Below are positions 10,738-51,946 of a stretch of DNA of 64,000 bases, in pieces. This stretch comes from a phage. The stretch lies in the NCBI GenBank assembly GCA_024613925.1, contig GCA_024613925.1_4713.1; one strand, given 5' to 3'. A model generated the notes under the pieces. That model worked only from the letters and a program-made list of their open reading frames with translations, did no database searches and was not told where the DNA came from. Every line of letters begins with the position of its first letter. The stretch's first letter is position 1. Made by a program: the position numbers and the translations under genes.

Positions 10738-12063
10738 TCACTTCAGTAGCTTAGACGTCGCCATGCTTCGCGCTAACGCAACGTCATACGCATCCATGAT
10801 TGCGTCACCGATAGCGGTATGACGGATCAGCGGAATACCCATGTCTGGATACTCTTTGGTGCCTAAGATGGATACCGGTTTGTCTTGATACGCAGCAATC
10901 ATCGAACGAATATCCTGAACCTGGTTATAACGACAAACTGGCTTAAAGCCCGCTTTACGGAACCAATGCTCTAATTGAGGCCAATCTGTTTCACCGCGAG
11001 CAAGATAATAGAAGGTATCTTTACCGTAGTATTCGGTCATTTTGTCACGAATACTGTTGACGAACGCATTTACTTCGGCGATGGCTTCTTTATAACCCAT
11101 TGCCTTACAATGTTGAAAACAATAGTCGCGCGCTTCCTTTGGTGCTTTGGTTTGCCACCATTCTACTGTTGATTCACTGATACGACCACCGTCAGCGATT
11201 TGACCATGAACGTCAGGGAAGATATCTATACGCGGACCGTTAACAATGGATTCTGGATTAGCCAGATCGAAGAACACGATACCGATTTCCAGCAATACTC
11301 CATTCTTTTCCAGACTAAGGTTTTCAACATCTAAACAAAATGCAGGCTTCTCTACCGCTAACGGCTCGAACGAATGGTTGCTGGTATCCGATTCGGTTTT
11401 AAGTTCGACGACAACCGGATCGGTATCCGTAGGTTTCAGTTCTACTACAGCATCATCGAGTCCCGATAATGAAAAATAGTCTTCGAAGAAATCGGGTATC
11501 GTCATACCATGCAAATTGATATCGCAATCTTCCAACCATTGCTTCAACTGGTGCTCACCGGCATGAATCGCTAAACGGCATGGTCCGGAACGATCATCTA
11601 GCGCTGCATCGATCCAGAAGAAAGCACGTATAAGTAAGTAAGGATTATACTCCGCGATGATTTCTTGGCTAGCCGAGAAATCGTACACCATTAGTTGTAT
11701 TATTCCCTTACGTGTGTTATACGGATCAACTTTCAATCGACGCACTATTTCTTCTACGAATTCCAGCGCACGCGTGTACGATGTGGACCCACCTTGTTCA
11801 TACGAACATATACCCGTCAAAAGTTCCTTATAGGACGCATATGGAACCATAGGCGATAATTTGTACGACAGTTCAGTATTGTAATTATCGCATAATTTCT
11901 TCGGGGCGATAGCATCCTGTATCGCTGTAATAAACGCCGGTCCATCAATATCAAACAACCATCCTTGACGCCGGTATGCAGTGTATCGTAATAACGCACC
12001 GATAACTGCCTGGGGCGGTGTATATTCTTTCCCGTTAATTTCAAACAGTAGTTTGCTCATCAT
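10738..12063 (-). CDS. protein with C-terminal DEDDh-type (DnaQ-like) 3'-5' exonuclease domain
   Basis: 441 aa; C-terminal half has FCLDVENLSL (D-x-E) and HTAIGDAIMDAYD (H-x-A-x-x-DA); N-terminal about 230 aa unassigned. Confidence 0.55.
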   Translation of the reverse strand: MMSKLLFEINGKEYTPPQAVIGALLRYTAYRRQGWLFDIDGPAFITAIQDAIAPKKLCDNYNTELSYKLSPMVPYASYKELLTGICSYEQGGSTSYTRALEFVEEIVRRLKVDPYNTRKGIIQLMVYDFSASQEIIAEYNPYLLIRAFFWIDAALDDRSGPCRLAIHAGEHQLKQWLEDCDINLHGMTIPDFFEDYFSLSGLDDAVVELKPTDTDPVVVELKTESDTSNHSFEPLAVEKPAFCLDVENLSLEKNGVLLEIGIVFFDLANPESIVNGPRIDIFPDVHGQIADGGRISESTVEWWQTKAPKEARDYCFQHCKAMGYKEAIAEVNAFVNSIRDKMTEYYGKDTFYYLARGETDWPQLEHWFRKAGFKPVCRYNQVQDIRSMIAAYQDKPVSILGTKEYPDMGIPLIRHTAIGDAIMDAYDVALARSMATSKLLK

Positions 12064-18706: not shown

Positions 18707-18740
18707 CTCCTCCCCAGGAAAGGTGTGGGGAGGAGTTTTT
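18707..18740 (+). terminator. hairpin cctcctcccc/ggggaggag followed by TTTTT, upstream of the helicase gene
   Basis: Stem arms 18707..18716 and 18727..18735, T5 at 18736..18740; terminator-like but located 5' of a plus-strand gene (possible attenuator). Confidence 0.35.
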
Positions 18741-18770
18741 ATCATACATTCTATTAAATCGAGCGCGATT

Positions 18771-20852
18771 ATGTTGGATAGAATCAATCGTTTAATGAAC
18801 CGAATAACGGTTAAAAATCAGAGTAACAATACCGTGCATATCGGGGGTATCGATGCCTGGCGTCTTTCAGATGACATTCAGCGAATATGGGGTACCTCCC
18901 GATTTATGAAACATATGTTTCGTAATTTCTCTTCTAGTGGACTCAGTCTCCACAACTTTTACCTTCCCGATTTCGTTTATATTCTCGAAACGATCATCGA
19001 GGCAAAGAATACTCGCAGTAATAAACGCATGCTGAAACACCTTATTGAGGTACTGCTGCAGGAAACCTGGTTGCAAAATACCACAATCGAGCAACCTGCA
19101 ATCCTCGATAAAGCACGCATGAACAAAATGCTAACGCTCTCCCTGTTCGATTATCAAGATGAGTTTATCGACATCTATAACCGTAACGTACCTAAATATC
19201 GACTGAAAGGATACGTGTGCGCGATGGGTGCGGGTGCGGGTAAAACAATCACCGCATTGGCTTTAAGCGCCGCAATGAACGTCGATGTATTTGTGGTTTG
19301 CTGTCCTAAGAACACCATGCGTTCAGCATGGCAATCCGATGTAAACAAAGCCATCGTTGACCCTGCAACAGAAACCGCGTTCTGGTCAGATACAATGCCC
19401 CCATCACAGCTGCAGAAAAGCGATAAGTATTATTTTCTGCATTACGAGTCGATGGGTTTATTAAACGAAGTAATGATCAAGCATAAACGCACAGCGAAGC
19501 GCGTGTTGATCGTGGTTGACGAAAGCCATAACTTCAACGACAAGAACAGCCAACGTTCCCAACGACTGGTTGATCTCGTACAGACGATGCGTCAGACCAT
19601 GAATGCGGATGTGCATGTCTTGTTTATGTCGGGTACGCCTGTTAAACAGATGGGTTCTGAGATGATCCCCTGTTTAGGTTGTATCGACCCGATGTTCCAA
19701 GGACAGGTGGTCGATAGCTTCAAAGCAATTTACGGTTTAACCAGCAGTCGCGCTAACGATATCCTCAGACATCGTCTTGGGTTCATGATGCATGTCGTAC
19801 CTAAAGAGGCTTACCGTAAAACCCGTCCGGAAGTTCAGGATGTTTACGTGAAGCTTCCTAACGGTAGCGATTATACCATCTCGAGCATTCGTGACGATAT
19901 GGCGATATTTGTACGCGATCGGGCGAAGTATTACAAGGATAACTGGGGGCATTACAGAAAGATTTTTGATGACGCGTTGGACTACTATCGCAAGACTATT
20001 CGTACCGATGGTGAACGTAAAGAGCTATCTCGATACGAATCGATTGTTGCTCGTTTCCAGAAAGGTTACGACCCCGTCAGAGACAAAGAAGATGCGATGT
20101 TCTGCAACACGTTTGAAAAACGAGCGATCATGCCGGTTCTTCCTTCCGATTTAAGGGTTGCTTTCAAAGACGCCAAGAGCGTCATCAAGTACGTTGGGTT
20201 GAAAATTCAGGGTGAAGCGTTGGCGCGTGTTCTAGGTGCAGCCCGCATTCGGTGTCATGTCGACATGGTGGAATACATCGACTTCGAAGGGTACATCAAC
20301 AACGCTGAAGCCAAGGTGTTGATCTTCACGTCGTATGTTCAGGTGGTTGAGCGCGTCGACAACCTGCTTCGTGATGCGGGTTTCTTACCTGAACCCATTT
20401 ACGGGAAGACCAACAAGAACATCAACCAGATACTTGTTCGTCTACGGGACGATCCTGACAGCGGTCCCGCTATCGCAACATTTGATAGCTTAGCTGAAGG
20501 GGTTCCGATGCTGATGTGTAATGTGGGTCTTTTCCTGAACAACCCGTGGCGTTCGTCCGATGAAATCCAAGCCATCAGCCGTCTCGATCGTGTAGGGCAA
20601 ACGCAACCTGTTCGGATTTATCGTTTCATGTTGGATACAGGAAGCGAGGGTAACGTTTCTACACGTAGCCACGAAATCATGGAGTTAAGTCGGCAGCTTG
20701 TTGAAGAAATCACGGGTGTCAAATACGTGGTGAACAAGCAAGACGATGTTAACTTGCAAGAAACGTTGGCGATGGAAGGATACGATCAATACGTTACCGT
20801 AAACACCACGGAATACGATATTAAACCGCGACCTGCGTTCTTGGAATGGTAA
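18771..20852 (+). CDS. SNF2-family (SF2) helicase/ATPase
   Basis: Walker A GAGAGKT, DESH box (VVDESHNF), SGTP, C-terminal Q..R..R.GQ motifs. Track ORF starts 18723; start moved to Met 18771 to clear the upstream hairpin. Confidence 0.65.
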   Translation: MLDRINRLMNRITVKNQSNNTVHIGGIDAWRLSDDIQRIWGTSRFMKHMFRNFSSSGLSLHNFYLPDFVYILETIIEAKNTRSNKRMLKHLIEVLLQETWLQNTTIEQPAILDKARMNKMLTLSLFDYQDEFIDIYNRNVPKYRLKGYVCAMGAGAGKTITALALSAAMNVDVFVVCCPKNTMRSAWQSDVNKAIVDPATETAFWSDTMPPSQLQKSDKYYFLHYESMGLLNEVMIKHKRTAKRVLIVVDESHNFNDKNSQRSQRLVDLVQTMRQTMNADVHVLFMSGTPVKQMGSEMIPCLGCIDPMFQGQVVDSFKAIYGLTSSRANDILRHRLGFMMHVVPKEAYRKTRPEVQDVYVKLPNGSDYTISSIRDDMAIFVRDRAKYYKDNWGHYRKIFDDALDYYRKTIRTDGERKELSRYESIVARFQKGYDPVRDKEDAMFCNTFEKRAIMPVLPSDLRVAFKDAKSVIKYVGLKIQGEALARVLGAARIRCHVDMVEYIDFEGYINNAEAKVLIFTSYVQVVERVDNLLRDAGFLPEPIYGKTNKNINQILVRLRDDPDSGPAIATFDSLAEGVPMLMCNVGLFLNNPWRSSDEIQAISRLDRVGQTQPVRIYRFMLDTGSEGNVSTRSHEIMELSRQLVEEITGVKYVVNKQDDVNLQETLAMEGYDQYVTVNTTEYDIKPRPAFLEW

Positions 20853-23779: not shown

Positions 23780-25354
23780 TTACAATTCAAAATCTTCATC
23801 GATAACGCGCTGGGTAAGCACTTTGTCGCTGAAGAACTCCACCTTGCGCTGATGGTATTTACGGTGCGCTTCAATAGAAGTACATACCAGATACCAGAAC
23901 GTTGGTGTCATTCCTTCAAACTTCCCTTTCAGCTGACGCAGTCGCCCCAACACCTGAATGTTACCGGTTCGTGACCCCATCGCTAATGTCATGAACGTCA
24001 TCACCAAGTCAGGAAGGTCGATACCTGTACCTGCCGATTTCACGGTTGTAACGCTGATATCGTTATCCAACAAGACCATGAAATCTTCTTCAGCAGTATA
24101 AGGACCAATCTCTAACTCAGGAATACGTTCACTGAGATAATGCGATAACGACTTACACATATCAACGGTTGCACAATACACCAGCATCTTCATACCTTCC
24201 TGATACTGGTTCATGAAACCTTTGATGATAACCGTATAGATAAAGTTGAAATAGGCGAGTTTGAGTTGCTTGTTCTTCATGATAGACTGTTCGAATATCG
24301 TGTGAGAATAAGAACCCCCAAACCCTTTGTATCTGACTTTATCTGTACTGCGTAGTCGATACGTCACGGCATTTACCGCAATGTATTTCTTGTATTCGCA
24401 TTTCGCATAACGCGCTTCTTTCGGATACATCAAATACAACATCCGCTCGATGAACGGATCGTCAGACACCGCTGTTGCCGACAGATAGATGATTTCCGGA
24501 ATATTTGCATAGCACTTCACTTTGAACAAGAAATGCAAGGCTTCATGGCATTCATCGTGGATCAACAACCCAATACCTGTTTTCTCCCAGAACTCGGCGG
24601 GATGGAAAACATAAGGTGCGACACAATTGTTCTTTTCATAATCGGTTATGTATCTCTGAAACATGTTCAGCGAGAATAACGCAATTTTGAAATCCAGCTC
24701 ACCTTGTTCCACCAACGTCTGGAATTCCAGCATGCTGTAACGAGGAATGTCTGGATGCGGTGGGTCAGATTGGGCTGTACCGCGTATCTCGATAACATCG
24801 CCTGGTTCCATACCGAAGAAACTTAGCAACGAGCTGCGCCATCCAGGCATGTATCTCGGTGACAGAATAATGCCCGTCCGTACACCACGTCGGAAGGTGA
24901 TCTCCTGCGACATGGCTGTTTTACCACTGCCCGTGCCTGCGGTGTTTAGGCTCATTCTGAAGGGGGTATCCTTACCCCCATCCATGTACTCCAACCATTC
25001 TTGCTGATCTTCGCGCCACGGGAACTTCCATTTCTTTACGAACTCCACTTCCTTACCTGGCACCGGATCGTGATAAACGATTTCCAACCACTCTTTTCGG
25101 ATTCCTCGAGAGAAGATAAAATCCAAAAACGATTTCAACTGTTCACGGAGTAAGTATACCTCGCTATAATCGCTTCTTGCCGCGGCATACGTGTTTATGG
25201 TATCGGTAACCATTCTCCGTGTACGAGGGTCACGTCGTTTCCTCAGATGCAAACAACGGTCTCGAAGGTAATGGCCGATAAGATGGGCAAATCGAAGTCC
25301 GTATCCGCTCAGCCTCATGCCATGCGAGAAGACGTCGATACGAGCTAACTTCAT
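23780..25354 (-). CDS. SF2 DExH-box helicase-like protein
   Basis: 524 aa; Walker A GTGSGKT, DExH (LIHDECHE), motif III LSAT. Confidence 0.6.
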   Translation of the reverse strand: MKLARIDVFSHGMRLSGYGLRFAHLIGHYLRDRCLHLRKRRDPRTRRMVTDTINTYAAARSDYSEVYLLREQLKSFLDFIFSRGIRKEWLEIVYHDPVPGKEVEFVKKWKFPWREDQQEWLEYMDGGKDTPFRMSLNTAGTGSGKTAMSQEITFRRGVRTGIILSPRYMPGWRSSLLSFFGMEPGDVIEIRGTAQSDPPHPDIPRYSMLEFQTLVEQGELDFKIALFSLNMFQRYITDYEKNNCVAPYVFHPAEFWEKTGIGLLIHDECHEALHFLFKVKCYANIPEIIYLSATAVSDDPFIERMLYLMYPKEARYAKCEYKKYIAVNAVTYRLRSTDKVRYKGFGGSYSHTIFEQSIMKNKQLKLAYFNFIYTVIIKGFMNQYQEGMKMLVYCATVDMCKSLSHYLSERIPELEIGPYTAEEDFMVLLDNDISVTTVKSAGTGIDLPDLVMTFMTLAMGSRTGNIQVLGRLRQLKGKFEGMTPTFWYLVCTSIEAHRKYHQRKVEFFSDKVLTQRVIDEDFEL

Positions 25355-37618: not shown

Positions 37619-38452
37619 TCAGCGGAACATGTCCAACAGAAAACGTTTTGCGAAGGGGTCACGTAACTGGTTGACACCAAAGCGTGTACGGTCTTCCGTT
37701 GTTAGTGGATTCCATTGACTCTGTTTCGCAAGATCTAATAGCATCCTTTTTATTTTCACCGGCCCACTGTTGAACTGTACGGCTTGGTCACCGAACGTTC
37801 CCAATGTCATCTTTGTAAATGGAAGGTTCGCAACCTCTGGACGATCCCCACCAGTAAGTTTGGTTGACCACTGATGTTTTCGTTTCAAAGTTCCGGTATG
37901 GCTTTCTACCAAAATAAGTTCACCAAAACCGGTTCTTGCCAACAAGTCAGAAACATAGTGCGTGGTGATATACGATGTCTTGGTTATCGCGGGTAATTTA
38001 CAATCCATCGATTCGATATTAGGGAGTCGATCTACAGACGCCATCAACCCACGATAAAGTGTAGCGAGTCCTTTTTGTTTTTCGGTGTGTGGCTCCTTAT
38101 GTATAGCGTGCGGATAAACACGCTTTATTGACGCATAGGTTGGCGCATATATCCGCAAGCGAATATGGGGAACGAGTTCATTCACCAGCTGCCTTAGCTG
38201 TAGTAACTCGTTTTGAAAATCCCCTGTTATCATCGATAATGGTAATTTATGTTGTTCAACGTCTTCAAAGCTTTCAACGAAATTGCGTGCTAAAGTACGC
38301 AGGTTGAACAACCAATCCATCGGTGTTTCTGGCTGTTGCTGTACGGCTGATAATGTTGCAGACGTACCTACCGATAAAGGATAATCACCTAACGTGCGGG
38401 CGTACATATTGCTCATACCCCACAACTCCTTCTTATCATGGCAACGTATCAA
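37619..38452 (-). CDS. hypothetical protein
   Basis: 277-aa ORF. Confidence 0.5.
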   Translation of the reverse strand: MIRCHDKKELWGMSNMYARTLGDYPLSVGTSATLSAVQQQPETPMDWLFNLRTLARNFVESFEDVEQHKLPLSMITGDFQNELLQLRQLVNELVPHIRLRIYAPTYASIKRVYPHAIHKEPHTEKQKGLATLYRGLMASVDRLPNIESMDCKLPAITKTSYITTHYVSDLLARTGFGELILVESHTGTLKRKHQWSTKLTGGDRPEVANLPFTKMTLGTFGDQAVQFNSGPVKIKRMLLDLAKQSQWNPLTTEDRTRFGVNQLRDPFAKRFLLDMFR

Positions 38453-39578
38453 GCCAAGCAGAAACCTTTAAGGCATCAACGTTCGGGTATTTGTTACGAA
38501 TGCGTTCGACCAACAAACGCTTAACGTTGTCCTTTGTCAAGTCTCCACCTTTCTCGATAACGTTATTGACAAAACTGTTCTTTAATAGCGACTGGTTGTT
38601 CTTGGCGTCCGTTTTAATTGACCAGACAAAACCTGGATACAAAGAAGGGATAGAACGAAACGTTTTCGCCGCATCGTCTTCCTTATCACAGCGTATTCGG
38701 ATATGATCACCCTTCTTCAATGGAGCCAATTCCCGTTCCAACACGCGAATGATTTCATCTCCAACAAGACCATGCAGTTTTATCGTCTTGTAGACATCTG
38801 CTTTCTTGTTTTCAACAAATTCCCACTGGTCGTTAAACGTTTCCGTTAACATATAACGGAGGTATCCCTTCGGACCTTCTTCGCCGTGCGCCAAGCGACC
38901 AAATGAACCGCCAACCATGATACGTCCTTTCTGGGATTGTAAGTGGATATGTCCGCTCACAATCCATCCCTGGGTCTTCTCCACCATTGCGTTATACGCA
39001 TCGCTGCTATGAACACATGTTGCTTTTAACGCTTCTGGTGGAAGTTGATATTCAAACGCACCGTGCATCAGAATAAAGTCCGGCGATCCCTTCTCATCAA
39101 TAAGTCGGTTCACGGCCGACAACGTCACATCCGGGTCGTGGCTGTAGTTATCTGGAAGATAAAGTACTTTTAAACCAAAGTCTTCATCAACCATGCAGAG
39201 GTCATCGTAATAACGAACTTTCGCTCCTATCTCCATGACCTCGTTCTGTTCAACGAACCACTGACTTTGCTTCTGGTCGTGTAAATTGGTACCCTCAAGA
39301 AAGATCAATGTAATATCGTGTTTTCTCGCATACCGTAACAACCAGGTACCCCAGGCACGAACAGCAACCACGTCACTCGTCACAAATGTCGTAATACGAT
39401 CGAAGACATCGCCGCTGAACGTAATCACATCAAGCAGCGCAGGATCTTCTTTTGTAATGTAGTAACGTAGCTGACTAATCAGGTTTACTGTCGGCGTTTG
39501 ACGATGGATAAAGTGAATATCCGACAAGTTGATTCCACGTAATACCCCAGGCGTTTTATTTCGACTGAAGTCTCGCAT
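38436..39578 (-). CDS. Mre11/SbcD-like metallophosphoesterase
   Basis: 380 aa; ordered motifs LSDIHF, FSGDVFDR, GTNLHD, LMHGAFE, SGHIHLQ. Confidence 0.55.
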   Translation of the reverse strand: MRDFSRNKTPGVLRGINLSDIHFIHRQTPTVNLISQLRYYITKEDPALLDVITFSGDVFDRITTFVTSDVVAVRAWGTWLLRYARKHDITLIFLEGTNLHDQKQSQWFVEQNEVMEIGAKVRYYDDLCMVDEDFGLKVLYLPDNYSHDPDVTLSAVNRLIDEKGSPDFILMHGAFEYQLPPEALKATCVHSSDAYNAMVEKTQGWIVSGHIHLQSQKGRIMVGGSFGRLAHGEEGPKGYLRYMLTETFNDQWEFVENKKADVYKTIKLHGLVGDEIIRVLERELAPLKKGDHIRIRCDKEDDAAKTFRSIPSLYPGFVWSIKTDAKNNQSLLKNSFVNNVIEKGGDLTKDNVKRLLVERIRNKYPNVDALKVSAWLDTLP

Positions 39579-44041: not shown

Positions 44042-44419
44042 CTGTTTATCGACTATATCTTCATCCTCGTTGCGAGGAGTCTCCCGTTTTGGTCTGTGTT
44101 TAACAGAGCCTACTCTACTCGACATCGCGTCTTTCGATAGTCTGTGAGCACACATCTTAACGAACATTCGTGGATTCCTAAACAGGTGAATGTTCTTGTT
44201 GAGATGCTTCGCTGCGGATTATTCCCGTCCTACCTCTTTTACCATATCCAGTTCATTACGCTGGCCCTCATCTGTGTCACCACGATGAGTTGGTGTGTAG
44301 TCCGATTACAGAAACTTCCCGTCAATTAGAGAGTTTTAACTATGTTCCTGTTACCAGAAACCAGATCCCGACGGTATCAATAAATCAACGTAAGTTATTG
44401 AATTTATTGAAAAAAACTG
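44042..44419 (-). ncRNA. group I intron, copy 1
   Basis: Minus-strand P (AATTGACGGGAAG, 44327..44315), Q (AATCCGCAGC, 44220..44211), R (GCTCACAGACTATCG, 44149..44135), S (AAGATATAGTCG, 44061..44050) match the classical consensus elements from memory. IGS GGAUCUG (44368..44362) pairs with exon-1 end CAGAUUU with U-G at the splice site; ends with G44042. Confidence 0.7.
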
Positions 44420-45675
44420 AAATCTGCGTTATAACCTTTGAGGATCATCACGCTTAACCCGATGGTGTTATCCTGCGGATCGCGTTTAACCTTGGTGATT
44501 TCAAGACATTGGTTACTGCTTCGGTCAAGTGATGGGTTTCGAACAAAACCACACACAATCCCATCGAACGGTGTATCAGCAATAAGCTCATCGTGCAGCT
44601 CGCTCATCATCGGATGATAATTACGGACATGTTCCGCAACGAACGCACGTGCTGCTCTCGGTGAATACCCACGATGGAATAGCTTGGATTGGATATGTTC
44701 TTTATTGGTTAAAGTAAATGGTGCGTATGGGAAATGCAGATGATAATAACGATGGTTCGCTGTTATCGAACTGATTACGGTACGCGTGGTGAATGGATGT
44801 AATGTACCTAATATGTTTTTACGTGTGATACCTTTCTTCTTACCGATGAACTCATCGAAAATCGCCGCATGGTATTGCAGCAGCTTCAATTGCACTTTCG
44901 CCATCCAGTTTTCTTTCTTTCTGGCGCTCAAAGGTGTTGTTGGATGATAGATGCTATTCAACGTACCGATAGCATCGATCGCACCTTCCATTTTGCTATC
45001 CGCATAACGACCGGTTGGCGTATTCTCGATAACGAACATCATGGCCGCAGGAAAGCTGATATACTGGCTGAAGAACTTATCACGATGGATACGGATGAAT
45101 TCTCGTAGTGTGTCAACTTTCTCCGTGTTCTTCGGTCCACGTAACGTCGGTCCTTTATACAAGATCTCCATGATGCGATCGAAGTTCTGTATAAAACTAT
45201 TTACGCCACGACGTATCCCGAATACATCGAATTGCTGCTCCAGATAGTTCTTGAGTTCGATGGGTCGTTTTACATTTGGACGGTAACTGGCATCAATGAG
45301 CCACGTCATCGTTTCAAAGCTTTTGATATTCAACTCGCTTGCCAGCACGAGATGGACCAACGGGTTAATGAACGCATCGATTCCTTCAGGAACGCGCGCC
45401 CAAACCGTCGAACGAATCTCTTGTTCTGCTGGGTAGGTTACAACCGTTTTACAGTTTGGACACACCGTGCCGAGCAGCTCACCACGATTGTAGAAACCAC
45501 AACCACATTGTGGTGTGATATCCAACGTATCGCTGGAGTAAACACGGGTGATAAAACTGTTTAATTTCTTCTTCTCTTCGACGACTTTTGTATCGTAATC
45601 GTTCAACAAAATCGGCGTAAAAGGAAGTTCTGCGAGCTGTCTATCGAAACTCACGATATCGAGCATGATGGCCAT
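44420..45675 (-). CDS. RNA polymerase beta-prime N-terminal fragment, exon 1
   Basis: GKKKGITRKNILGTLHPFTTRTVI resembles E. coli [31 protein letters not shown] resembles LNRAPTLHR; unspliced ORF ends ...GYNADF then SFFQ-stop, i.e. inside NADFDGD. N-terminal C-x-C...C-x-x-C zinc motif. AGGAGA upstream of ATG 45675. Confidence 0.7.
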
Positions 45676-45767: not shown

Positions 45768-47663
45768 TTAGAACAGGTTGAATGCCCCACCCATGTTGTT
45801 ACCGCCAACATTCGGACGATCGCTACGTGCGTAGATGTTGCCGGAGATGTTACCCAGACCACGAGCACGTGCTGCCATGTTACCACGAACAGCGGTACCT
45901 GCCAGGTGCTGGATGTTCTCAGGACGGATGGTGAAGCCAGCATCAGCCGCAGCTTCGATCAGCGCCTGCAGTGCTAACGGATCGAAGTCGTAACGCATTG
46001 CCCAGCCGGTTTGTTCCCAGCTACCAGACAGAACACGATCAATGATTTCGTGACGAGCGACAACACGCTGAGACATCGTCATATCGGTACGGTCGAAGCT
46101 GTCTTCCCAAGCTTCTACGGTATCCGGGTTAGTGATGTTCATCATGTACAGATCGTCCATATCACGAATATCGTGACGGTGACCATCCTGGTGGTTGTAG
46201 TAACCCAGCGGGATACGGTTACCGGTAGCGTAGACCAGCGGTTGGCCGTATTGATATTTCTTGCTGAAGCAACCCAGGGTAGTATCATCGAAGGCACGGT
46301 AGAGTGCTTTGTAACCTTCGGAGATTTCTTGAACTTTACCGTCAACGTTGCCCGTAAAGATCTTCTCAGCCGCCGGGATCATACGCAGCAGCCAGCTATA
46401 CTCGCCTTCTTCCGGTACGTCGATAGAAATCAGCAGAGACGGATACAGAACCTGTTGCAGGAACTTGTAAATCTGCTCGTTGGTTTGCGTAGACAGATCC
46501 AGCGGTGCAGTCACTTCAGGATCCAGCACCATCGCCAGAGCACCTGGGTTATGCGGACCAATACCACGAGCCGCGTTGCTGATTAAAGACTGTGCCCATG
46601 CCATGCCGCTGTTCAGCGTAGCGATGGTACCAATCAGACCCAGCACGAAGCTGTTCGGTGTGAACGCATCCAGCTCCAGCGGGTAAACGCTGGTCATCAC
46701 GTAACGCGGCTGGTACTGTACAGTCGGCGGTACCGGATAGCCGTTAACCAGAACAGGGCCTTGGTTGAAGGTCGGGTTCTGCGGGCTGTAGGTCAGGTCA
46801 ATGTAACCGGTGGTGGCGACCAGACGCTGTTGACTATCGTAATCGCTCATCGCTTGACGGATGCGGTTAGAGATAGTTACAGTGATGTCAGAACGCACAG
46901 GGTTACCAACAATATCGCTGTCCTGCATACCGCTGGTGTTGTACTGAACGCTGCTGATTGGCTGATCGCTTGCCATCATGCCCAGGTTGAACTGCGGCAG
47001 ACCCAGTTTATCACCGAGACGGATTTCGATCGCGGTTTGGATTGCGTTATCTGCAGCAGACAGCAGGGTGGTTGCCAGATGCGCAGATTCAGCGGTGATT
47101 TCATTGGTCACCACAGCCAGACCAGCGATACGAACAGTACCGTTAGACTTACCGCCAATAGCTGAATACATTGCCGCCATGACTTCGTTGATGAACGTAC
47201 CGTTCAGGTTATCAACCCAGGTACGCGGTACCAGAATGTTACCATGCGGACCTTGTTCTTCACGACGCGGCAGCGGAGCCAGACCAGCAACCAGCGGCAG
47301 GACGTAACCGAAGAAGTGGTTATGATCACCAACTTTTGCACCGCTCATAACAACCAGGGTCGGATACGGTACGCTGTACTGGTTCGGGTCAACCGCAACA
47401 AAGATGAAGTCGTCTTTGAACTGGGTATCTTCCAGATATTTCTCCATCAGACGACGGAGATTCAGTACCTGCTCGGAGCCGGTATTACGGCTGATACGAC
47501 GGCTCAGTGTACGGTTGATCGTACGCATCGTATGAGTTACTTTAGGACGGTCGGCAAAATCTGCAGCGGTTTCCAGCGCCTCATCAGCACGTTGTGCGGT
47601 GCGGGTTTCAGCTGCACGAATTTCTACATTATCGTTACCGTTATTACGTACGTCTAAGCCCAT
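45768..47663 (-). CDS. abundant structural/shell-type protein; candidate chimallin (phage-nucleus shell), alternatively a virion protein
   Basis: 631 aa; lies immediately upstream of the beta-prime N gene, which I recall is the chimallin/nvRNAP arrangement in phiKZ; own promoter motif and strong hairpin. No sequence-level confirmation possible here. Confidence 0.3.
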   Translation of the reverse strand: MGLDVRNNGNDNVEIRAAETRTAQRADEALETAADFADRPKVTHTMRTINRTLSRRISRNTGSEQVLNLRRLMEKYLEDTQFKDDFIFVAVDPNQYSVPYPTLVVMSGAKVGDHNHFFGYVLPLVAGLAPLPRREEQGPHGNILVPRTWVDNLNGTFINEVMAAMYSAIGGKSNGTVRIAGLAVVTNEITAESAHLATTLLSAADNAIQTAIEIRLGDKLGLPQFNLGMMASDQPISSVQYNTSGMQDSDIVGNPVRSDITVTISNRIRQAMSDYDSQQRLVATTGYIDLTYSPQNPTFNQGPVLVNGYPVPPTVQYQPRYVMTSVYPLELDAFTPNSFVLGLIGTIATLNSGMAWAQSLISNAARGIGPHNPGALAMVLDPEVTAPLDLSTQTNEQIYKFLQQVLYPSLLISIDVPEEGEYSWLLRMIPAAEKIFTGNVDGKVQEISEGYKALYRAFDDTTLGCFSKKYQYGQPLVYATGNRIPLGYYNHQDGHRHDIRDMDDLYMMNITNPDTVEAWEDSFDRTDMTMSQRVVARHEIIDRVLSGSWEQTGWAMRYDFDPLALQALIEAAADAGFTIRPENIQHLAGTAVRGNMAARARGLGNISGNIYARSDRPNVGGNNMGGAFNLF

Positions 47664-47917: not shown

Positions 47918-49012
47918 ATGTTTCGTGTTTTAAATAACCTCCCGCGAACATCATCGGGTGTGCAACCCGTCCCTCAGAAAGACTATCTAATACGCGAAGT
48001 TCAAAGAAACCTACAGACAATCCAGAACCACTATCAAGGTTTTACCTTCGCGGTTCAGAGCGATCACATCCTTGCGTTGCTGCTCGCACAGCTCCCTATG
48101 AGATACGACATCTCAGTACAAACTTACTACGACATGATTCTCGATCTTACCCCAGAATTGGGTAATCGTGTCAAGTTGACAACATCAAGATACGCGGGTA
48201 AGTTATTCGACGGTGCTTTCTATCCGGGATTGCACGAAGCTATTATCGCAACCGGTGAAAGTCGTCTTATTTCACGTGACATTCTTGACAACTGGCGTAA
48301 TTGGTCGCCGGTTAGAATCGTGACGCACCCGTACGCAAATCTTCGTTACATTCCTCTTCACCGAAAGCCGGTTGAAGAAGGACGAGGTTTTGCGGTCATT
48401 ATGGTTGATGTACCTTTATTAGCGCTACAGTATCGAATGTGGTCTTTGGTCATGGGTCATAACGTCGACGGTAAATGGGTGGTTAAAGAACCGGTTACAA
48501 GCTTCCTTGCGAGTTTTCCGTTGGTTAACGCATTATACTCACACAACGATGTTGTTATACGCAATCGTTGTTTATGGGTATCTCCGGCTAAGAATCCACT
48601 CAAATCACCCATTTACGTTAACGACCTTGATAACGTATTCAGCCAAGTCGTTCTGTCCGTACAGCATCATTTATTACGCAGAAGACGAAGCTACACCGAC
48701 ATGCTTAAACAGATACCGAGTTTATACGGGGATCAGTACCAAGCAACCCGAATGGGTTACACCGTCGATCTTCGACAAACACGATGGGCAAGGGATCTGG
48801 GTTGTCTGTCATTATGGCAACAACTCGTCACATTGCAAAACGTATCTGAAAGCGTCGGGTTCAGCAGTCAAGTCGATAATGACCTGTACCGTGCTGCCGA
48901 CCGGAGTCTAAAAGAAGGTAACTGGGAATCCTCTCCGTTACCTGGTGATTTAAGACGTGAAGTTATCGCACAGGTTGCCGACCTCTTAAAAATTCTTCCT
49001 GCTGGTGCATAA
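47918..49012 (+). CDS. hypothetical protein
   Basis: 364-aa ORF; TTTATTAC about 20 nt upstream of ATG. Confidence 0.55.
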   Translation: MFRVLNNLPRTSSGVQPVPQKDYLIREVQRNLQTIQNHYQGFTFAVQSDHILALLLAQLPMRYDISVQTYYDMILDLTPELGNRVKLTTSRYAGKLFDGAFYPGLHEAIIATGESRLISRDILDNWRNWSPVRIVTHPYANLRYIPLHRKPVEEGRGFAVIMVDVPLLALQYRMWSLVMGHNVDGKWVVKEPVTSFLASFPLVNALYSHNDVVIRNRCLWVSPAKNPLKSPIYVNDLDNVFSQVVLSVQHHLLRRRRSYTDMLKQIPSLYGDQYQATRMGYTVDLRQTRWARDLGCLSLWQQLVTLQNVSESVGFSSQVDNDLYRAADRSLKEGNWESSPLPGDLRREVIAQVADLLKILPAGA

Positions 49013-49078: not shown

Positions 49079-51232
49079 TTACTCTGCGGTTTCTCGCTTC
49101 GGTAAATAACTTGCTGCGATGTCTTGGGCTAACAATGTATTGTTTTTATTCGAGATGAAAATACCGTAACTTTCCATTAACGCGTAATACGAACGAACGA
49201 GCGTAGAGATCAATCGACGAATATCCATACCTTGAATAAAGATATCAGGAAGCCCGGAGGCTTCGATCACCGGTAATGGTATCGTTAAGTTGCTTATCGT
49301 TTTCTTATCGTTACGTACAATCCAATCACGGAAACGTTGTTGTAACCCTTTATCCTCCCAGGAATCAATCCAATCGTTAAGAAGCGTTTTGTTCTTCGTC
49401 GCCAACGGCACACGAACCCCAACATAGGGTGGTTCCTGGCAATGGCCGTACGATTGAGCAAACACCTCTTCCCACATATCGTAAGACTGTTTCGTTACCG
49501 CAACATGTGGTTTCACTTTAACACGTGTTAAGAAATCAGGATCACCACGTTTCATGGACTCAACGATTTCGTTTTCTAACGAGATAATATCGTCAAGAAC
49601 CAATCGAATGCTGATCTTCTCATTACGTAACAGCTTATCCATGATACCGCACATCATGCGTTCAACACGTTTGACGATCATTTTTGGTGCTGACGCATCA
49701 CGCATAACCGGACCTTTCAATTCCAGCTTCGGTGGATTGATAGGAACCCCTTCACGCATGGTCATGTAACCGTAATAGTTTTTACCCATCGAGGTTAACG
49801 ACAGAATCAAGAACATATATTCGTTCTTCATTTCCATCACGTACATATGCTCTTTCGCTACACCGATATTACCAGAACACATCGCCATCAGATGAACCGT
49901 AATCTGCGTAACCAGATAGATAAGCGTGTTTGCTAAGCGCGTCGAAACTGGATTGATCTCCATATTTCCAAATCGCCACTGAACCCACTCCTGGCAGGTA
50001 AACACCGTCGAGTCGGTATCAGACAACACGCCCACTTCACGGATTGCCGACGGAAAAGCATAAACGCCAGCCGGTTGGTTCTCGGTACGCCAGAACGCCA
50101 TAATCAAGTCAGCATAACTTTGGATGCGTTGCAGCATTAATTTTGTTGTTGCTGCGGTAAGACGATAACCAAGCTCATTTCCTTTTTCTAGCGCTACGTA
50201 AATCGCTTCCCCATTCAAGAACTCCGTGCATTGTGCTGTAATCCAAGCGACCGTGTTGTTATCCATGGAAGCAATAATGGCTTTAGCCTCTTCCATCGTT
50301 TCAACAGGTTCGGATGCCAGCTCACACAACGAGTCAAGAAAATCTCGAACAAATTCAGGATTAAGCTCACGTAACGAGTACAGGTTATTGCTGTACATGT
50401 AGCAGGCGCGTTCCAACGGCGTTAAACCGGTAATTAACTCCCGGATAGTCAGTTCTTTCTCTGGGTCGAAAGTATACCGATGTAAGCATTTCGATACGTT
50501 AGCCCAAACCTCTTCCGGCGTAGGGTAATGCAGTTTGTATTTTACCATTACCTGCTCAATGGCTTTACGATCGCTGTTACGGACGATGCTTACGATGTTT
50601 TCAATTGCGATATCACAATCGTAATAATGGAAATTGCCCGCAAGGAAGCGTTCGTTGTTCGCATTGGCTGAACCTGAAGCACAGCGACATGTTGTCGTTA
50701 GACTCGGATGCGCAATCGGATTATAAAAAGGGTTGAACTTGGACGCCTGGGTTCCTGACAAACTGTTGTTGTCTAACTTGGTGTTGGTTTGTCGTTTATC
50801 GTGTAGCTCCGCTTCGTCTTTACGTCCGTGTGCTTGCGCTATCGACATTTGTTTCTTTTGTTTCTTACGCAACTTACCGTTTTCAACCGCAAAGTCGCTT
50901 AGCACACTGGAACGTGTTTCACGTGGATAACAGTTAGCCCACACCGGCGTGATAATTAAATTATTTTCTTTAATATCGTTGAAGTATTGGCTGAACTTGA
51001 TGACTTCTTTTTCTCGATTTCCTTCGGTACGCTGCGTTAGTACAAGGCAGTCGGGATCAACCATCCCGTATTTTCCACCAGGACGAACCGTTTCAAGAAC
51101 AAACTGCAACGCTTCCTGCTGAGATATCCCACGCATGCGCATTAAGAACAGGGTATAATCCTGTACCGCTTCTTTGGTCATATCCAACGTACGACCATAT
51201 CCGTTTTCATCGTAAAAGAACGGATTTTCCAT
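49079..51232 (-). CDS. polymerase-like protein (family B DNA polymerase-type motifs B and C), no exonuclease domain
   Basis: 717 aa; TKLMLQRIQSY (cf. phi29 KLMLNSLYG) followed by GVLSDTDS (cf. YGDTDS). GGAGGA upstream of ATG. Function is tentative. Confidence 0.4.
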   Translation of the reverse strand: MENPFFYDENGYGRTLDMTKEAVQDYTLFLMRMRGISQQEALQFVLETVRPGGKYGMVDPDCLVLTQRTEGNREKEVIKFSQYFNDIKENNLIITPVWANCYPRETRSSVLSDFAVENGKLRKKQKKQMSIAQAHGRKDEAELHDKRQTNTKLDNNSLSGTQASKFNPFYNPIAHPSLTTTCRCASGSANANNERFLAGNFHYYDCDIAIENIVSIVRNSDRKAIEQVMVKYKLHYPTPEEVWANVSKCLHRYTFDPEKELTIRELITGLTPLERACYMYSNNLYSLRELNPEFVRDFLDSLCELASEPVETMEEAKAIIASMDNNTVAWITAQCTEFLNGEAIYVALEKGNELGYRLTAATTKLMLQRIQSYADLIMAFWRTENQPAGVYAFPSAIREVGVLSDTDSTVFTCQEWVQWRFGNMEINPVSTRLANTLIYLVTQITVHLMAMCSGNIGVAKEHMYVMEMKNEYMFLILSLTSMGKNYYGYMTMREGVPINPPKLELKGPVMRDASAPKMIVKRVERMMCGIMDKLLRNEKISIRLVLDDIISLENEIVESMKRGDPDFLTRVKVKPHVAVTKQSYDMWEEVFAQSYGHCQEPPYVGVRVPLATKNKTLLNDWIDSWEDKGLQQRFRDWIVRNDKKTISNLTIPLPVIEASGLPDIFIQGMDIRRLISTLVRSYYALMESYGIFISNKNNTLLAQDIAASYLPKRETAE

Positions 51233-51532
51233 AAATCCTCCAAAAGTTATTTAGTCTGTCTACATCATCTCGTATATCTGTTAAAAAAGAAGGACGGCAT
51301 AAAAAAGAACCGATCCAGCCGAAGCCAGATCGGTTAAAAAAGGATAATAACTGACAGAAAGATATCGATGATGTTCGTGAAACAAGATCTTCTCTCGTGC
51401 ACAATGATGCTAGATCAGAGGGAGGTTGTAACACGAGAGGCGATTCGCCAAAGAAGGAATAAAAAACACGAATCTATCTTATTTCACTGATGGCACTAAC
51501 CACTCAAAATATATAGTACTGTATGTAAAAGT

Positions 51533-51946
51533 TTACTGATTAATCAAGTCGTTAGCAACAATCTTGGTGTAACCTGCCTGATTAAGAATTTGATTAATTT
51601 TCGTCACGTCGGTCGCATCCTCAATAACGATGCTGGGTTTATAGATCAGCGTCTTGGTAACGACGATTGTACTCTCCTTAATCCAAGGAATCCCTAGAAT
51701 CACATACTCGCCATCAGCTGTGATGACCTCGACGTAATTGTATTTCGTCGGATCGTTCGGTACACTGGACGGGAGCCGGGAATAAATCTGTTGATGAATA
51801 GCGTCTACATCACGGCCGTTGCGCACAGCCGTACGATAGTTGTACACGGCACTAATTTCTACTCCGTTGAAGTTAACCCCAAGTTCTGGGGCGTACACAT
51901 CAAAACTCACAACAGAGCCAATCTTTTCTAAATCAGAAGCTGGCAT
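51533..51946 (-). CDS. hypothetical protein
   Basis: 137-aa ORF. Confidence 0.55.
   Translation of the reverse strand: MPASDLEKIGSVVSFDVYAPELGVNFNGVEISAVYNYRTAVRNGRDVDAIHQQIYSRLPSSVPNDPTKYNYVEVITADGEYVILGIPWIKESTIVVTKTLIYKPSIVIEDATDVTKINQILNQAGYTKIVANDLINQ

What the first reader, a model, noticed from the sequence alone, without database searches (positions are those of the whole stretch)
49079..51232. PolB-like catalytic motifs in a 717-aa protein lacking an exonuclease domain
TKLMLQRIQSY followed by GVLSDTDS resembles family-B motif B (K-x3-N-S-x-Y-G) and motif C (Y-G-D-T-D-S), but I see no Exo I-III motifs. Candidate proofreading partners elsewhere in the window are the DEDDh exonuclease protein (10738..12063) and the Mre11-like phosphoesterase (38436..39578). 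This would mean the replicative polymerase is split.
Basis: inference. Interest (0 to 1): 0.5.

Follow-up and report, generated by a model that had tools for sequence, protein, structure and literature searches.

The report
Known split phage DNA polymerase half
This gene encodes the C-terminal half (DNAP-C) of the two-piece family-B DNA polymerase of nucleus-forming jumbo phages; it is 99.7% identical to a phage Goslar protein that has already been purified and tested, so the finding is correct in outline but ordinary.

Summary
The 717-aa ORF at 49079..51232 (-) is real. It matches Pfam PF20286 "Divergent Family B DNA polymerase" over its full length (E 1.6e-204). It is 99.7% identical to phage Goslar gp244 (DNAP-C), and the window is a Goslar-like chimallivirus (97.4% nt identity).

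- Motif C (SDTDS, 404-408).
- No exonuclease domain in this protein.
- The polymerase is split.

- Its "motif B" (TKLMLQRIQSY, 363-373) is unconserved and lies in the palm-insertion domain. The true motif B is KLDNNSLSG (152-160).
- Both proposed partners are wrong. The real partner is DNAP-N (Goslar gp068, phiKZ gp82), which lies outside the window, about 95 kb away in Goslar. It carries the N-terminal domain, Exo I-III and also motif A, so the split runs through the palm domain and neither half has a complete active site.
- The DEDDh exonuclease at 10738..12063 is a non-core accessory gene. The Mre11-like protein is the SbcD half of SbcCD.

All of this is published: Iyer 2021, and two October 2026 preprints with a phiKZ cryo-EM structure and Goslar biochemistry. 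The only open point is the SH3-fold gene directly upstream (51533..51946).

The parts
49079..51232 (-). DNAP-C subunit of the chimallivirus split family-B DNA polymerase (717 aa). It contains the rest of the palm, the fingers with motif B (KLDNNSLSG, aa 152-160), two palm-insertion segments (about aa 1-89 and 198-400), motif C (SDTDS, aa 404-408; catalytic D407), the KxY motif (K484-N-Y486) and the thumb.
51533..51946 (-). SH3DP: a small (137 aa) SH3-fold protein encoded directly upstream of the polymerase gene. It is a conserved neighbour and a chimallivirus core gene (cg1), and possibly a polymerase accessory factor. Its function is untested.
   Evidence: PF20287 'SH3 fold domain associated with phage DNA polymerases' E 1.3e-36. 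It matches phiKZ gp049, BLASTP E 7e-19, which also matches PF20287. It is adjacent to divDNApol in all six metagenomic loci shown. Iyer 2021 noted the neighbourhood. Antisense knock-down of phiKZ049 gives a strong phenotype.
51308..51335 (-). Terminator-like hairpin (12-bp stem followed by a T-run) between the SH3DP gene and the polymerase gene.
   Evidence: Pattern scan. The number of such sites in the region is not above the shuffle expectation. Goslar carries an annotated 'putative transcriptional terminator' at the equivalent position.
10738..12063 (-). NOT part of the polymerase. A 441-aa protein with a C-terminal Rv2179c-like DEDDh 3'-5' exonuclease domain (aa 243-425) and an unassigned N-terminal half.
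   Evidence: PF16473 E 3.5e-16 and phrog_255. Homologues occur in only 31 phage records, and it is 52.8% identical to the Goslar counterpart. It shares a family with the cytoplasmic, non-core RAY gp064.
38436..39578 (-). NOT part of the polymerase. An SbcD/Mre11-like nuclease (380 aa), core gene cg8, partner of an SbcC-like protein.
   Evidence: phrog_100 'SbcD-like subunit of palindrome specific endonuclease' E 1.1e-39. It equals Goslar gp178, cg8 'putative nuclease', with cg44 'SbcC-like' elsewhere. The phiKZ counterpart is annotated SbcD-like.

Best explanation
The ORF encodes DNAP-C, the C-terminal subunit of the obligate two-chain family-B replicative DNA polymerase of nucleus-forming jumbo phages (Chimalliviridae).

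DNAP-C supplies part of the palm, the fingers (motif B: dNTP binding), the motif C aspartate (metal ligand), the KxY primer-binding motif and the thumb.

The other subunit, DNAP-N, is encoded far away in the genome and is not in this window. It supplies the N-terminal domain, the 3'-5' proofreading exonuclease (Exo I-III) and motif A, which holds the second catalytic aspartate and the steric-gate tyrosine.

The two chains interdigitate through a helical 'palm insertion' domain built from the C-terminus of DNAP-N and two segments of DNAP-C. Only the heterodimer has a complete polymerase active site. A third, transiently bound subunit, Rhc (RNase H plus a clamp-derived domain, also outside the window), binds the DNAP-C thumb and the emerging duplex and shifts the enzyme from degrading the primer to extending it.

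Shown here: family membership, motifs, fold, absence of the exonuclease domain and motif A from this chain, presence of both in the Goslar partner, and co-occurrence of the two genes. Taken from the literature: the 1:1 complex, the catalytic activities and the Rhc role.
For: - Family and identity: PF20286 full-length, E 1.6e-204. 99.7% identical to Goslar gp244, and the window is 97.4% nt identical to Goslar.
- Motifs in 92 homologues: invariant K152/N156/G160, D405-T-D407-S408 and K484/Y486.
- The N-terminal ~110 residues align to RB69 residues 438-505, downstream of motif A, so motif A is missing from this chain. A regex search finds no D..SLYP-like motif.
- Partner (Goslar gp068 / P0113, 583 aa): invariant D155/E157 (Exo I), N254/D258 (Exo II) and Y389/D393 (Exo III); near-invariant D499-L-D501...Y506-P507, i.e. 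DxxSxYP, motif A.
- Co-occurrence: 306 versus 296 phage records with the same per-genus counts for eight of the ten listed genera; the exception is Bacillus, 9 versus 6.
- Both genes are chimallivirus core genes, cg2 and cg21.
- Literature: phiKZ gp82+gp50 form a 1:1 complex solved by cryo-EM at 2.1 A, with motif A D562 on DNAP-N and motif C D426 on DNAP-C. Window D407 aligns to D426.
- Literature: Goslar gp068+gp244 were co-purified and are active, and knock-down of either abolishes replication.
- Literature: the RAY orthologue gp220 localises in the phage nucleus.
Against: Nothing contradicts this reading. There are three caveats.
- DNAP-N and Rhc lie outside the 64-kb window (tblastn E 6.6 and 2.3). 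Their presence in this exact genome is inferred from the 97%-identical Goslar genome and from Goslar-like metagenomic contigs, not read directly.
- No model of the complex could be computed here.
Confidence: 0.95

Rival explanations
1. One reading: an exonuclease-less polymerase that is complete on its own and recruits the stand-alone DEDDh exonuclease (10738..12063) as a proofreader in trans, like Pol III alpha with epsilon.
For: The 441-aa protein does contain a DnaQ-superfamily DEDDh domain (PF16473 E 3.5e-16, phrog_255 'exonuclease'). Iyer 2021 wrote only that an exonuclease is 'encoded elsewhere'.
Against: - Homologues occur in only 31 phage records, mostly non-chimalliviruses, against 306 for the polymerase.
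- It is only 52.8% identical to the Goslar counterpart, while the polymerase is 99.7% identical.
- Its family member RAY gp064 is non-core and cytoplasmic, whereas the polymerase is nuclear.
- A dedicated PolB-type exonuclease subunit exists and is co-conserved with the polymerase.
- The polymerase chain lacks motif A, so it cannot be self-sufficient.
Confidence: 0.02
2. The Mre11-like phosphoesterase (38436..39578) acts as the proofreading partner.
For: It is a core chimallivirus nuclease (cg8). It lies in the same conserved gene block region as the polymerase in phiKZ, Goslar and the window.
Against: It matches the SbcD-like subunit of the SbcCD palindrome/hairpin endonuclease (phrog_100, E 1.1e-39). 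A separate SbcC-like core protein exists (cg44). From established knowledge, SbcCD/Mre11-Rad50 processes DNA ends and hairpins and does not proofread. It is not among the subunits of the purified polymerase.
Confidence: 0.01
3. A stand-alone, exonuclease-deficient specialised (repair or translesion) PolB, unrelated to genome replication.
For: The polypeptide has no exonuclease domain.
Against: - It lacks motif A.
- It is a core gene whose tree is congruent with the whole-genome tree.
- Knock-down of Goslar DNAP-C abolishes phage DNA replication.
- Antisense knock-down of phiKZ050 gives a plaque phenotype.
Confidence: 0.02

Closest known systems
Goslar gp244 (YP_009820875.1), the DNAP-C of Escherichia phage vB_EcoM_Goslar
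   Same: 99.7% amino-acid identity over all 717 residues and the same neighbours: SH3DP, cg3, chimallin, the nvRNAP subunit and PhuZ. It has been co-purified with gp068 as an active polymerase/exonuclease, and knock-down stops DNA replication.
   Different: Two amino-acid differences or so. The window's genome differs from Goslar elsewhere: 97.4% nt identity, a missing HNH ORF near 44 kb, and a divergent DEDDh gene.
phiKZ gp50 (DNAP-C) with gp82 (DNAP-N), cryo-EM structure (Basu et al., bioRxiv 2026, PMC13648687)
   Same: 33% identity over the full length. Motif C D426 aligns to window D407. The same palm-insertion segments are present, the same upstream SH3DP gene (gp049) and the same synteny.
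   Different: phiKZ DNAP-N has a 'little finger' insertion that is restricted to some Pseudomonas chimalliviruses. The Goslar-type DNAP-N is shorter, 583 versus 638 aa.
RB69 / T4 gp43, single-chain family-B replicative polymerases
   Different: RB69 gp43 is one 903-aa chain that uses a ring-shaped sliding clamp. Here there are two chains (583 + 717 aa) split inside the palm, a large helical palm insertion, and a monomeric clamp-derived Rhc subunit instead of a ring.
Archaeal split PolB (Methanothermobacter thermautotrophicus two-gene PolB; Nanoarchaeum equitans PolB joined by a split intein). Recalled from my own knowledge, not tested here.
   Same: A family-B polymerase encoded by two separate genes whose products must combine.
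   Different: The lineage differs, and as far as I recall so does the split position. N. equitans re-ligates the halves by protein trans-splicing, whereas the phage halves remain separate chains held together by an inserted domain.
Pol III alpha + epsilon (polymerase with a separate DnaQ proofreader)
   Different: In Pol III the polymerase subunit has a complete active site and epsilon is a small DEDDh protein. Here the 'exonuclease' subunit also carries polymerase motif A, and the window's stand-alone DEDDh protein is not co-conserved with the polymerase.

Membership tests
Chimallivirus DNAP-C / Pfam PF20286 divDNApol | Full-length match to the PF20286 profile above the gathering score | tested here: met
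   681.6 bits against a cut-off of 25.7; residues 9-705 match profile positions 3-704 of 705.
Chimallivirus DNAP-C / Pfam PF20286 divDNApol | PolB motif B (K-x3-N-S-x-[YS]-G) on the fingers, and motif C (D-T-D-S) on the palm hairpin | tested here: met
   KLDNNSLSG 152-160 and SDTDS 404-408 are invariant or near-invariant in 92 homologues. They lie on helix 138-161 and on strands 401-404/409-411 of the model. D407 aligns with phiKZ D426.
Chimallivirus DNAP-C / Pfam PF20286 divDNApol | No exonuclease domain and no motif A in this chain | tested here: met
   No PF03104 in the query or in 112 homologues of 687-796 aa. No DxxSLYP-like motif. The N-terminus aligns to RB69 438-505, after motif A.
Chimallivirus DNAP-C / Pfam PF20286 divDNApol | Family-B polymerase fold (palm, fingers, thumb) | tested here: met
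Chimallivirus DNAP-C / Pfam PF20286 divDNApol | A partner DNAP-N gene (N-terminal domain + Exo I-III + motif A) in the same genome | tested here: inconclusive
   Absent from the 64-kb window. Present in the 97.4%-identical Goslar genome (gp068) and as an intron-less 583-aa ORF on a 237-kb Goslar-like contig. Its motifs and fold are confirmed. It co-occurs with DNAP-C in 296 versus 306 phage records. The window's own genome beyond the window cannot be read.
Chimallivirus DNAP-C / Pfam PF20286 divDNApol | Conserved neighbourhood: SH3DP upstream and chimallin nearby | tested here: met
   PF20287 at 51533-51946, and chimallin at 45768-47663 (equivalent to Goslar 'nuclear shell protein'). The order is the same in phiKZ.
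Chimallivirus DNAP-C / Pfam PF20286 divDNApol | Stable 1:1 complex with DNAP-N; polymerase activity needs both chains; stimulated by Rhc | not testable with these tools
   Shown experimentally for phiKZ and for the 99.7%-identical Goslar protein.
Canonical single-chain family-B polymerase (PF03104 + PF00136) | Exonuclease domain, motif A, motif B and motif C all in one polypeptide | tested here: not met
   Only motifs B and C are present here. The exonuclease domain and motif A are on a separate protein.
Polymerase with a trans-acting DnaQ/DEDDh proofreader (Pol III alpha/epsilon type) | The stand-alone DEDDh exonuclease is co-conserved with the polymerase | tested here: not met
   31 phage records carry a homologue of the 441-aa DEDDh protein, against 306 for the polymerase. 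The related RAY gp064 is non-core and cytoplasmic.

The most novel reading that the evidence does not exclude
The small SH3-fold protein encoded immediately upstream (51533..51946, PF20287) may be a fourth functional component of the split polymerase that the current three-subunit model omits. It could, for example, be an assembly or nuclear-import chaperone for DNAP-C, or a DNA/primer-binding accessory that substitutes for the missing primase-handoff or clamp-loader functions.

It is a chimallivirus core gene and always sits next to the polymerase gene. Its phiKZ orthologue gives a strong knock-down phenotype. Neither 2026 preprint on the reconstituted enzyme mentions it.
Probability: 0.3. 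Interest if true: 0.45.

Novelty: already known. Interest (0 to 1): 0.1.

Why it matters
As a discovery it does not matter, because all of it is already established:
- The gene is annotated "DNA polymerase" in RefSeq.
- It has its own Pfam family.
- It was described as an exonuclease-less divergent PolB in 2021.
- Its Goslar and phiKZ orthologues have now been reconstituted, and phiKZ has been solved by cryo-EM.

The useful outcomes are corrections for annotation:
- Motif B lies at 152-160, not at 363-373.
- The partner is a PolB exonuclease + motif A subunit outside the window, not the DEDDh or Mre11-like proteins inside it.
- The split is within the palm, so the two halves are obligate partners.

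The adjacent SH3-fold core gene is the remaining untested piece of this replication machine.

Tried and rejected
- Direct sequence search of the 717-aa protein against PDB chains found nothing. A profile of the family was needed to reach RB69, poxvirus and Pol delta polymerases.
- I first considered 'IITPVWANCYP' (family consensus SPSMTxYxxP, aa 92-103) as a degenerate motif A within DNAP-C. I rejected it because it has no acidic residue and aligns to RB69 ~450-460, downstream of motif A, and because a textbook DxxSxYP motif sits at the C-terminal end of DNAP-N.
- tblastn of DNAP-N and of Rhc against the window found no homologue.
- An Rfam scan at gathering threshold found nothing in the window or in Goslar 45-95 kb. 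The group I introns appear only just below threshold, at about 44.6 bits against a gathering score of 50.
- I tried to show that the exact DNAP-C and DNAP-N sequences lie on the same metagenomic contig. The look-ups returned different records, so same-genome linkage rests on Goslar.

Full report
**Observation.** The ORF at 49079..51232 on the minus strand is real: 717 aa with an ATG start.

**Identity.**
- The protein matches Pfam PF20286 "Divergent Family B DNA polymerase" end to end: E 1.6e-204, residues 9-705 against profile positions 3-704 of 705. It also matches PHROG 2927 "DNA polymerase", E 1.9e-206.
- tblastn finds it in 306 phage records, all jumbo phages of the phiKZ type. The best hit is Escherichia phage Goslar at 99.7% identity, where RefSeq already calls it "DNA polymerase".
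- Window 40-60 kb is 97.4% nucleotide-identical to Goslar. The window as a whole corresponds to Goslar ~124.2-189.2 kb.
- The neighbours are the chimallivirus hallmarks: the chimallin nuclear shell protein, PhuZ tubulin and non-virion RNAP subunits.

**Motifs.** In an alignment of 92 homologues at 24-64% identity, the invariant residues include K152, N156, G160, D405, T406, D407, S408, K484 and Y486.
D407 aligns with phiKZ gp50 D426, the motif C catalytic aspartate in the cryo-EM structure.
The true motif B is KLDNNSLSG at 152-160, on the second long finger helix of the model (H138-161).
It falls within the segment that aligns to phiKZ gp50 221-419, part of the "palm insertion" domain.
- K484-N-Y486 corresponds to the KKRY motif. 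A profile of the family aligns positions 479-541 with RB69 gp43 705-767.

**No exonuclease domain, and no motif A.**
- None of 112 homologues (687-796 aa) carries an exonuclease domain.
- There is no DxxSLYP-like motif A in the chain.
- The N-terminal ~110 residues align to RB69 438-505, which lies after motif A.
- This chain therefore cannot form a complete polymerase active site on its own.

**The real partner.** The chimallivirus core-gene table of Prichard et al. lists two "DNA polymerase" genes. One is cg2 (this ORF; listed there under the GenBank number Goslar gp191, which is RefSeq gp244; also phiKZ gp050 and RAY gp220). The other is cg21 (Goslar gp068, phiKZ gp082, RAY gp285).
- Goslar gp068 lies at 79.7 kb, about 95 kb from the polymerase gene.
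- A full-length intron-less allele (P0113, 583 aa) and 80 homologues share invariant residues: D155/E157 (Exo I, DIETD), N254/D258 (Exo II) and Y389/D393 (Exo III).
- Near the C-terminus they share the near-invariant D499-L-D501-x-x-S-x-Y506-P507, which is the DxxSLYPS motif A.
- The motif A segment is the low-confidence part of that model. This is what one would expect of a strand that needs the other subunit to fold.
- The gene occurs in 296 phage records, with the same per-genus counts as the polymerase for eight of the ten listed genera; the exception is Bacillus, 9 versus 6.
- It is not in the window (tblastn best E 6.6).

**Literature.** All of this is published.
- Iyer et al. 2021 described the group 1 jumbo-phage polymerase as a divergent PolB with a DXD motif and a long helical insert. 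[quoted passage not shown]
- Basu et al. (bioRxiv, 1 Oct 2026) showed that phiKZ gp82 (DNAP-N) and gp50 (DNAP-C) form a stable 1:1 complex, and solved it at 2.1 A. The split lies within the palm insertion, motif A D562 is on DNAP-N, motif C D426 is on DNAP-C, and the exonuclease residues are on DNAP-N. They also found a third subunit, Rhc, made of RNase H plus a clamp-derived domain.
- Rani et al. (bioRxiv, 2 Oct 2026) purified Goslar gp068+gp244 and showed polymerase and exonuclease activity with Rhc stimulation. Knock-down of either subunit abolished DNA replication. They also noted the intron in gp068.
- Goslar Rhc lies at 233.1-234.6 kb, outside the window.

- The 441-aa protein at 10738..12063 has a C-terminal Rv2179c-like DEDDh domain (E 3.5e-16).
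  - Homologues occur in only 31 phage records, mostly non-chimalliviruses, and it is only 52.8% identical to its Goslar counterpart.
  - RAY gp064 has the same Pfam domain (pairwise E 3e-9). It is reported as non-core and cytoplasmic, whereas the polymerase is in the phage nucleus.
- The Mre11-like protein at 38436..39578 is the SbcD-like core nuclease (phrog_100, E 1.1e-39; cg8). A separate SbcC-like core protein exists.
- Neither is a plausible proofreader for this enzyme.

**What remains open.** The gene directly upstream, 51533..51946, is PF20287 "SH3 fold domain associated with phage DNA polymerases" (E 1.3e-36).
- It is core gene cg1 and the counterpart of phiKZ gp049.
- It lies next to the polymerase gene in every locus examined.
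- A strong hairpin with a T-run lies between the two genes.
- phiKZ049 knock-down gives a strong phenotype.
- Neither 2026 preprint mentions it.

**Verdict.** The feature is already known, and interest is low.

Noticed in passing
window 51533-51946 (-): SH3DP (PF20287), a 137-aa SH3-fold core protein directly upstream of the polymerase gene. Its function is untested. Its phiKZ orthologue gp049 has a strong knock-down phenotype, yet it is absent from the published three-subunit polymerase model.
   Followed up: partly
window 10738-12063 (-): The 441-aa DEDDh (Rv2179c-like) exonuclease is only 52.8% identical to its Goslar counterpart. The window regions compared directly with Goslar (40-60 kb and 61-64 kb) are ~97% nt identical, so this looks like a locally replaced or fast-evolving accessory gene. 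Its N-terminal ~240 aa match no family.
   Followed up: partly
window 44042-44367 (-): A group I intron match (RF00028, 44.6 bits, E 8e-10, just below the gathering score of 50) lies right after the nvRNAP beta-subunit ORF 44404-45675. Goslar has the intron plus a ~1 kb HNH endonuclease ORF here. The window is about 1 kb shorter and lacks that ORF, so it carries an endonuclease-less intron allele.
   Followed up: partly
L002 36183-37966 (Goslar NC_048170 ~81183-82966), outside the window: Goslar's DNAP-N gene is interrupted at the motif A codons by a ~1.78-kb insertion. The insertion carries the NUMOD1/HNH gene gp069 and a group I intron match (44.7 bits, E 1.4e-9). RefSeq therefore annotates a truncated 499-aa product. 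An intron-less 583-aa allele exists on a 237-kb metagenomic contig (L009). This is already described by Rani et al..
   Followed up: yes
window 47918-49012 (+): A 364-aa protein on the opposite strand between the polymerase and chimallin genes is core gene cg3 (phrog_3938; phiKZ gp052, annotated 'structural head protein'). It is a virion-type protein embedded in the replication/nucleus gene block.
   Followed up: no
window 18723-20852 (+) and 23780-25354 (-): Two helicase-like proteins. The first is an SF2/ResIII helicase that matches phrog_62. The second matches phrog_16 'DNA helicase'. Both are probably further replication or recombination components of the same phage.
   Followed up: no
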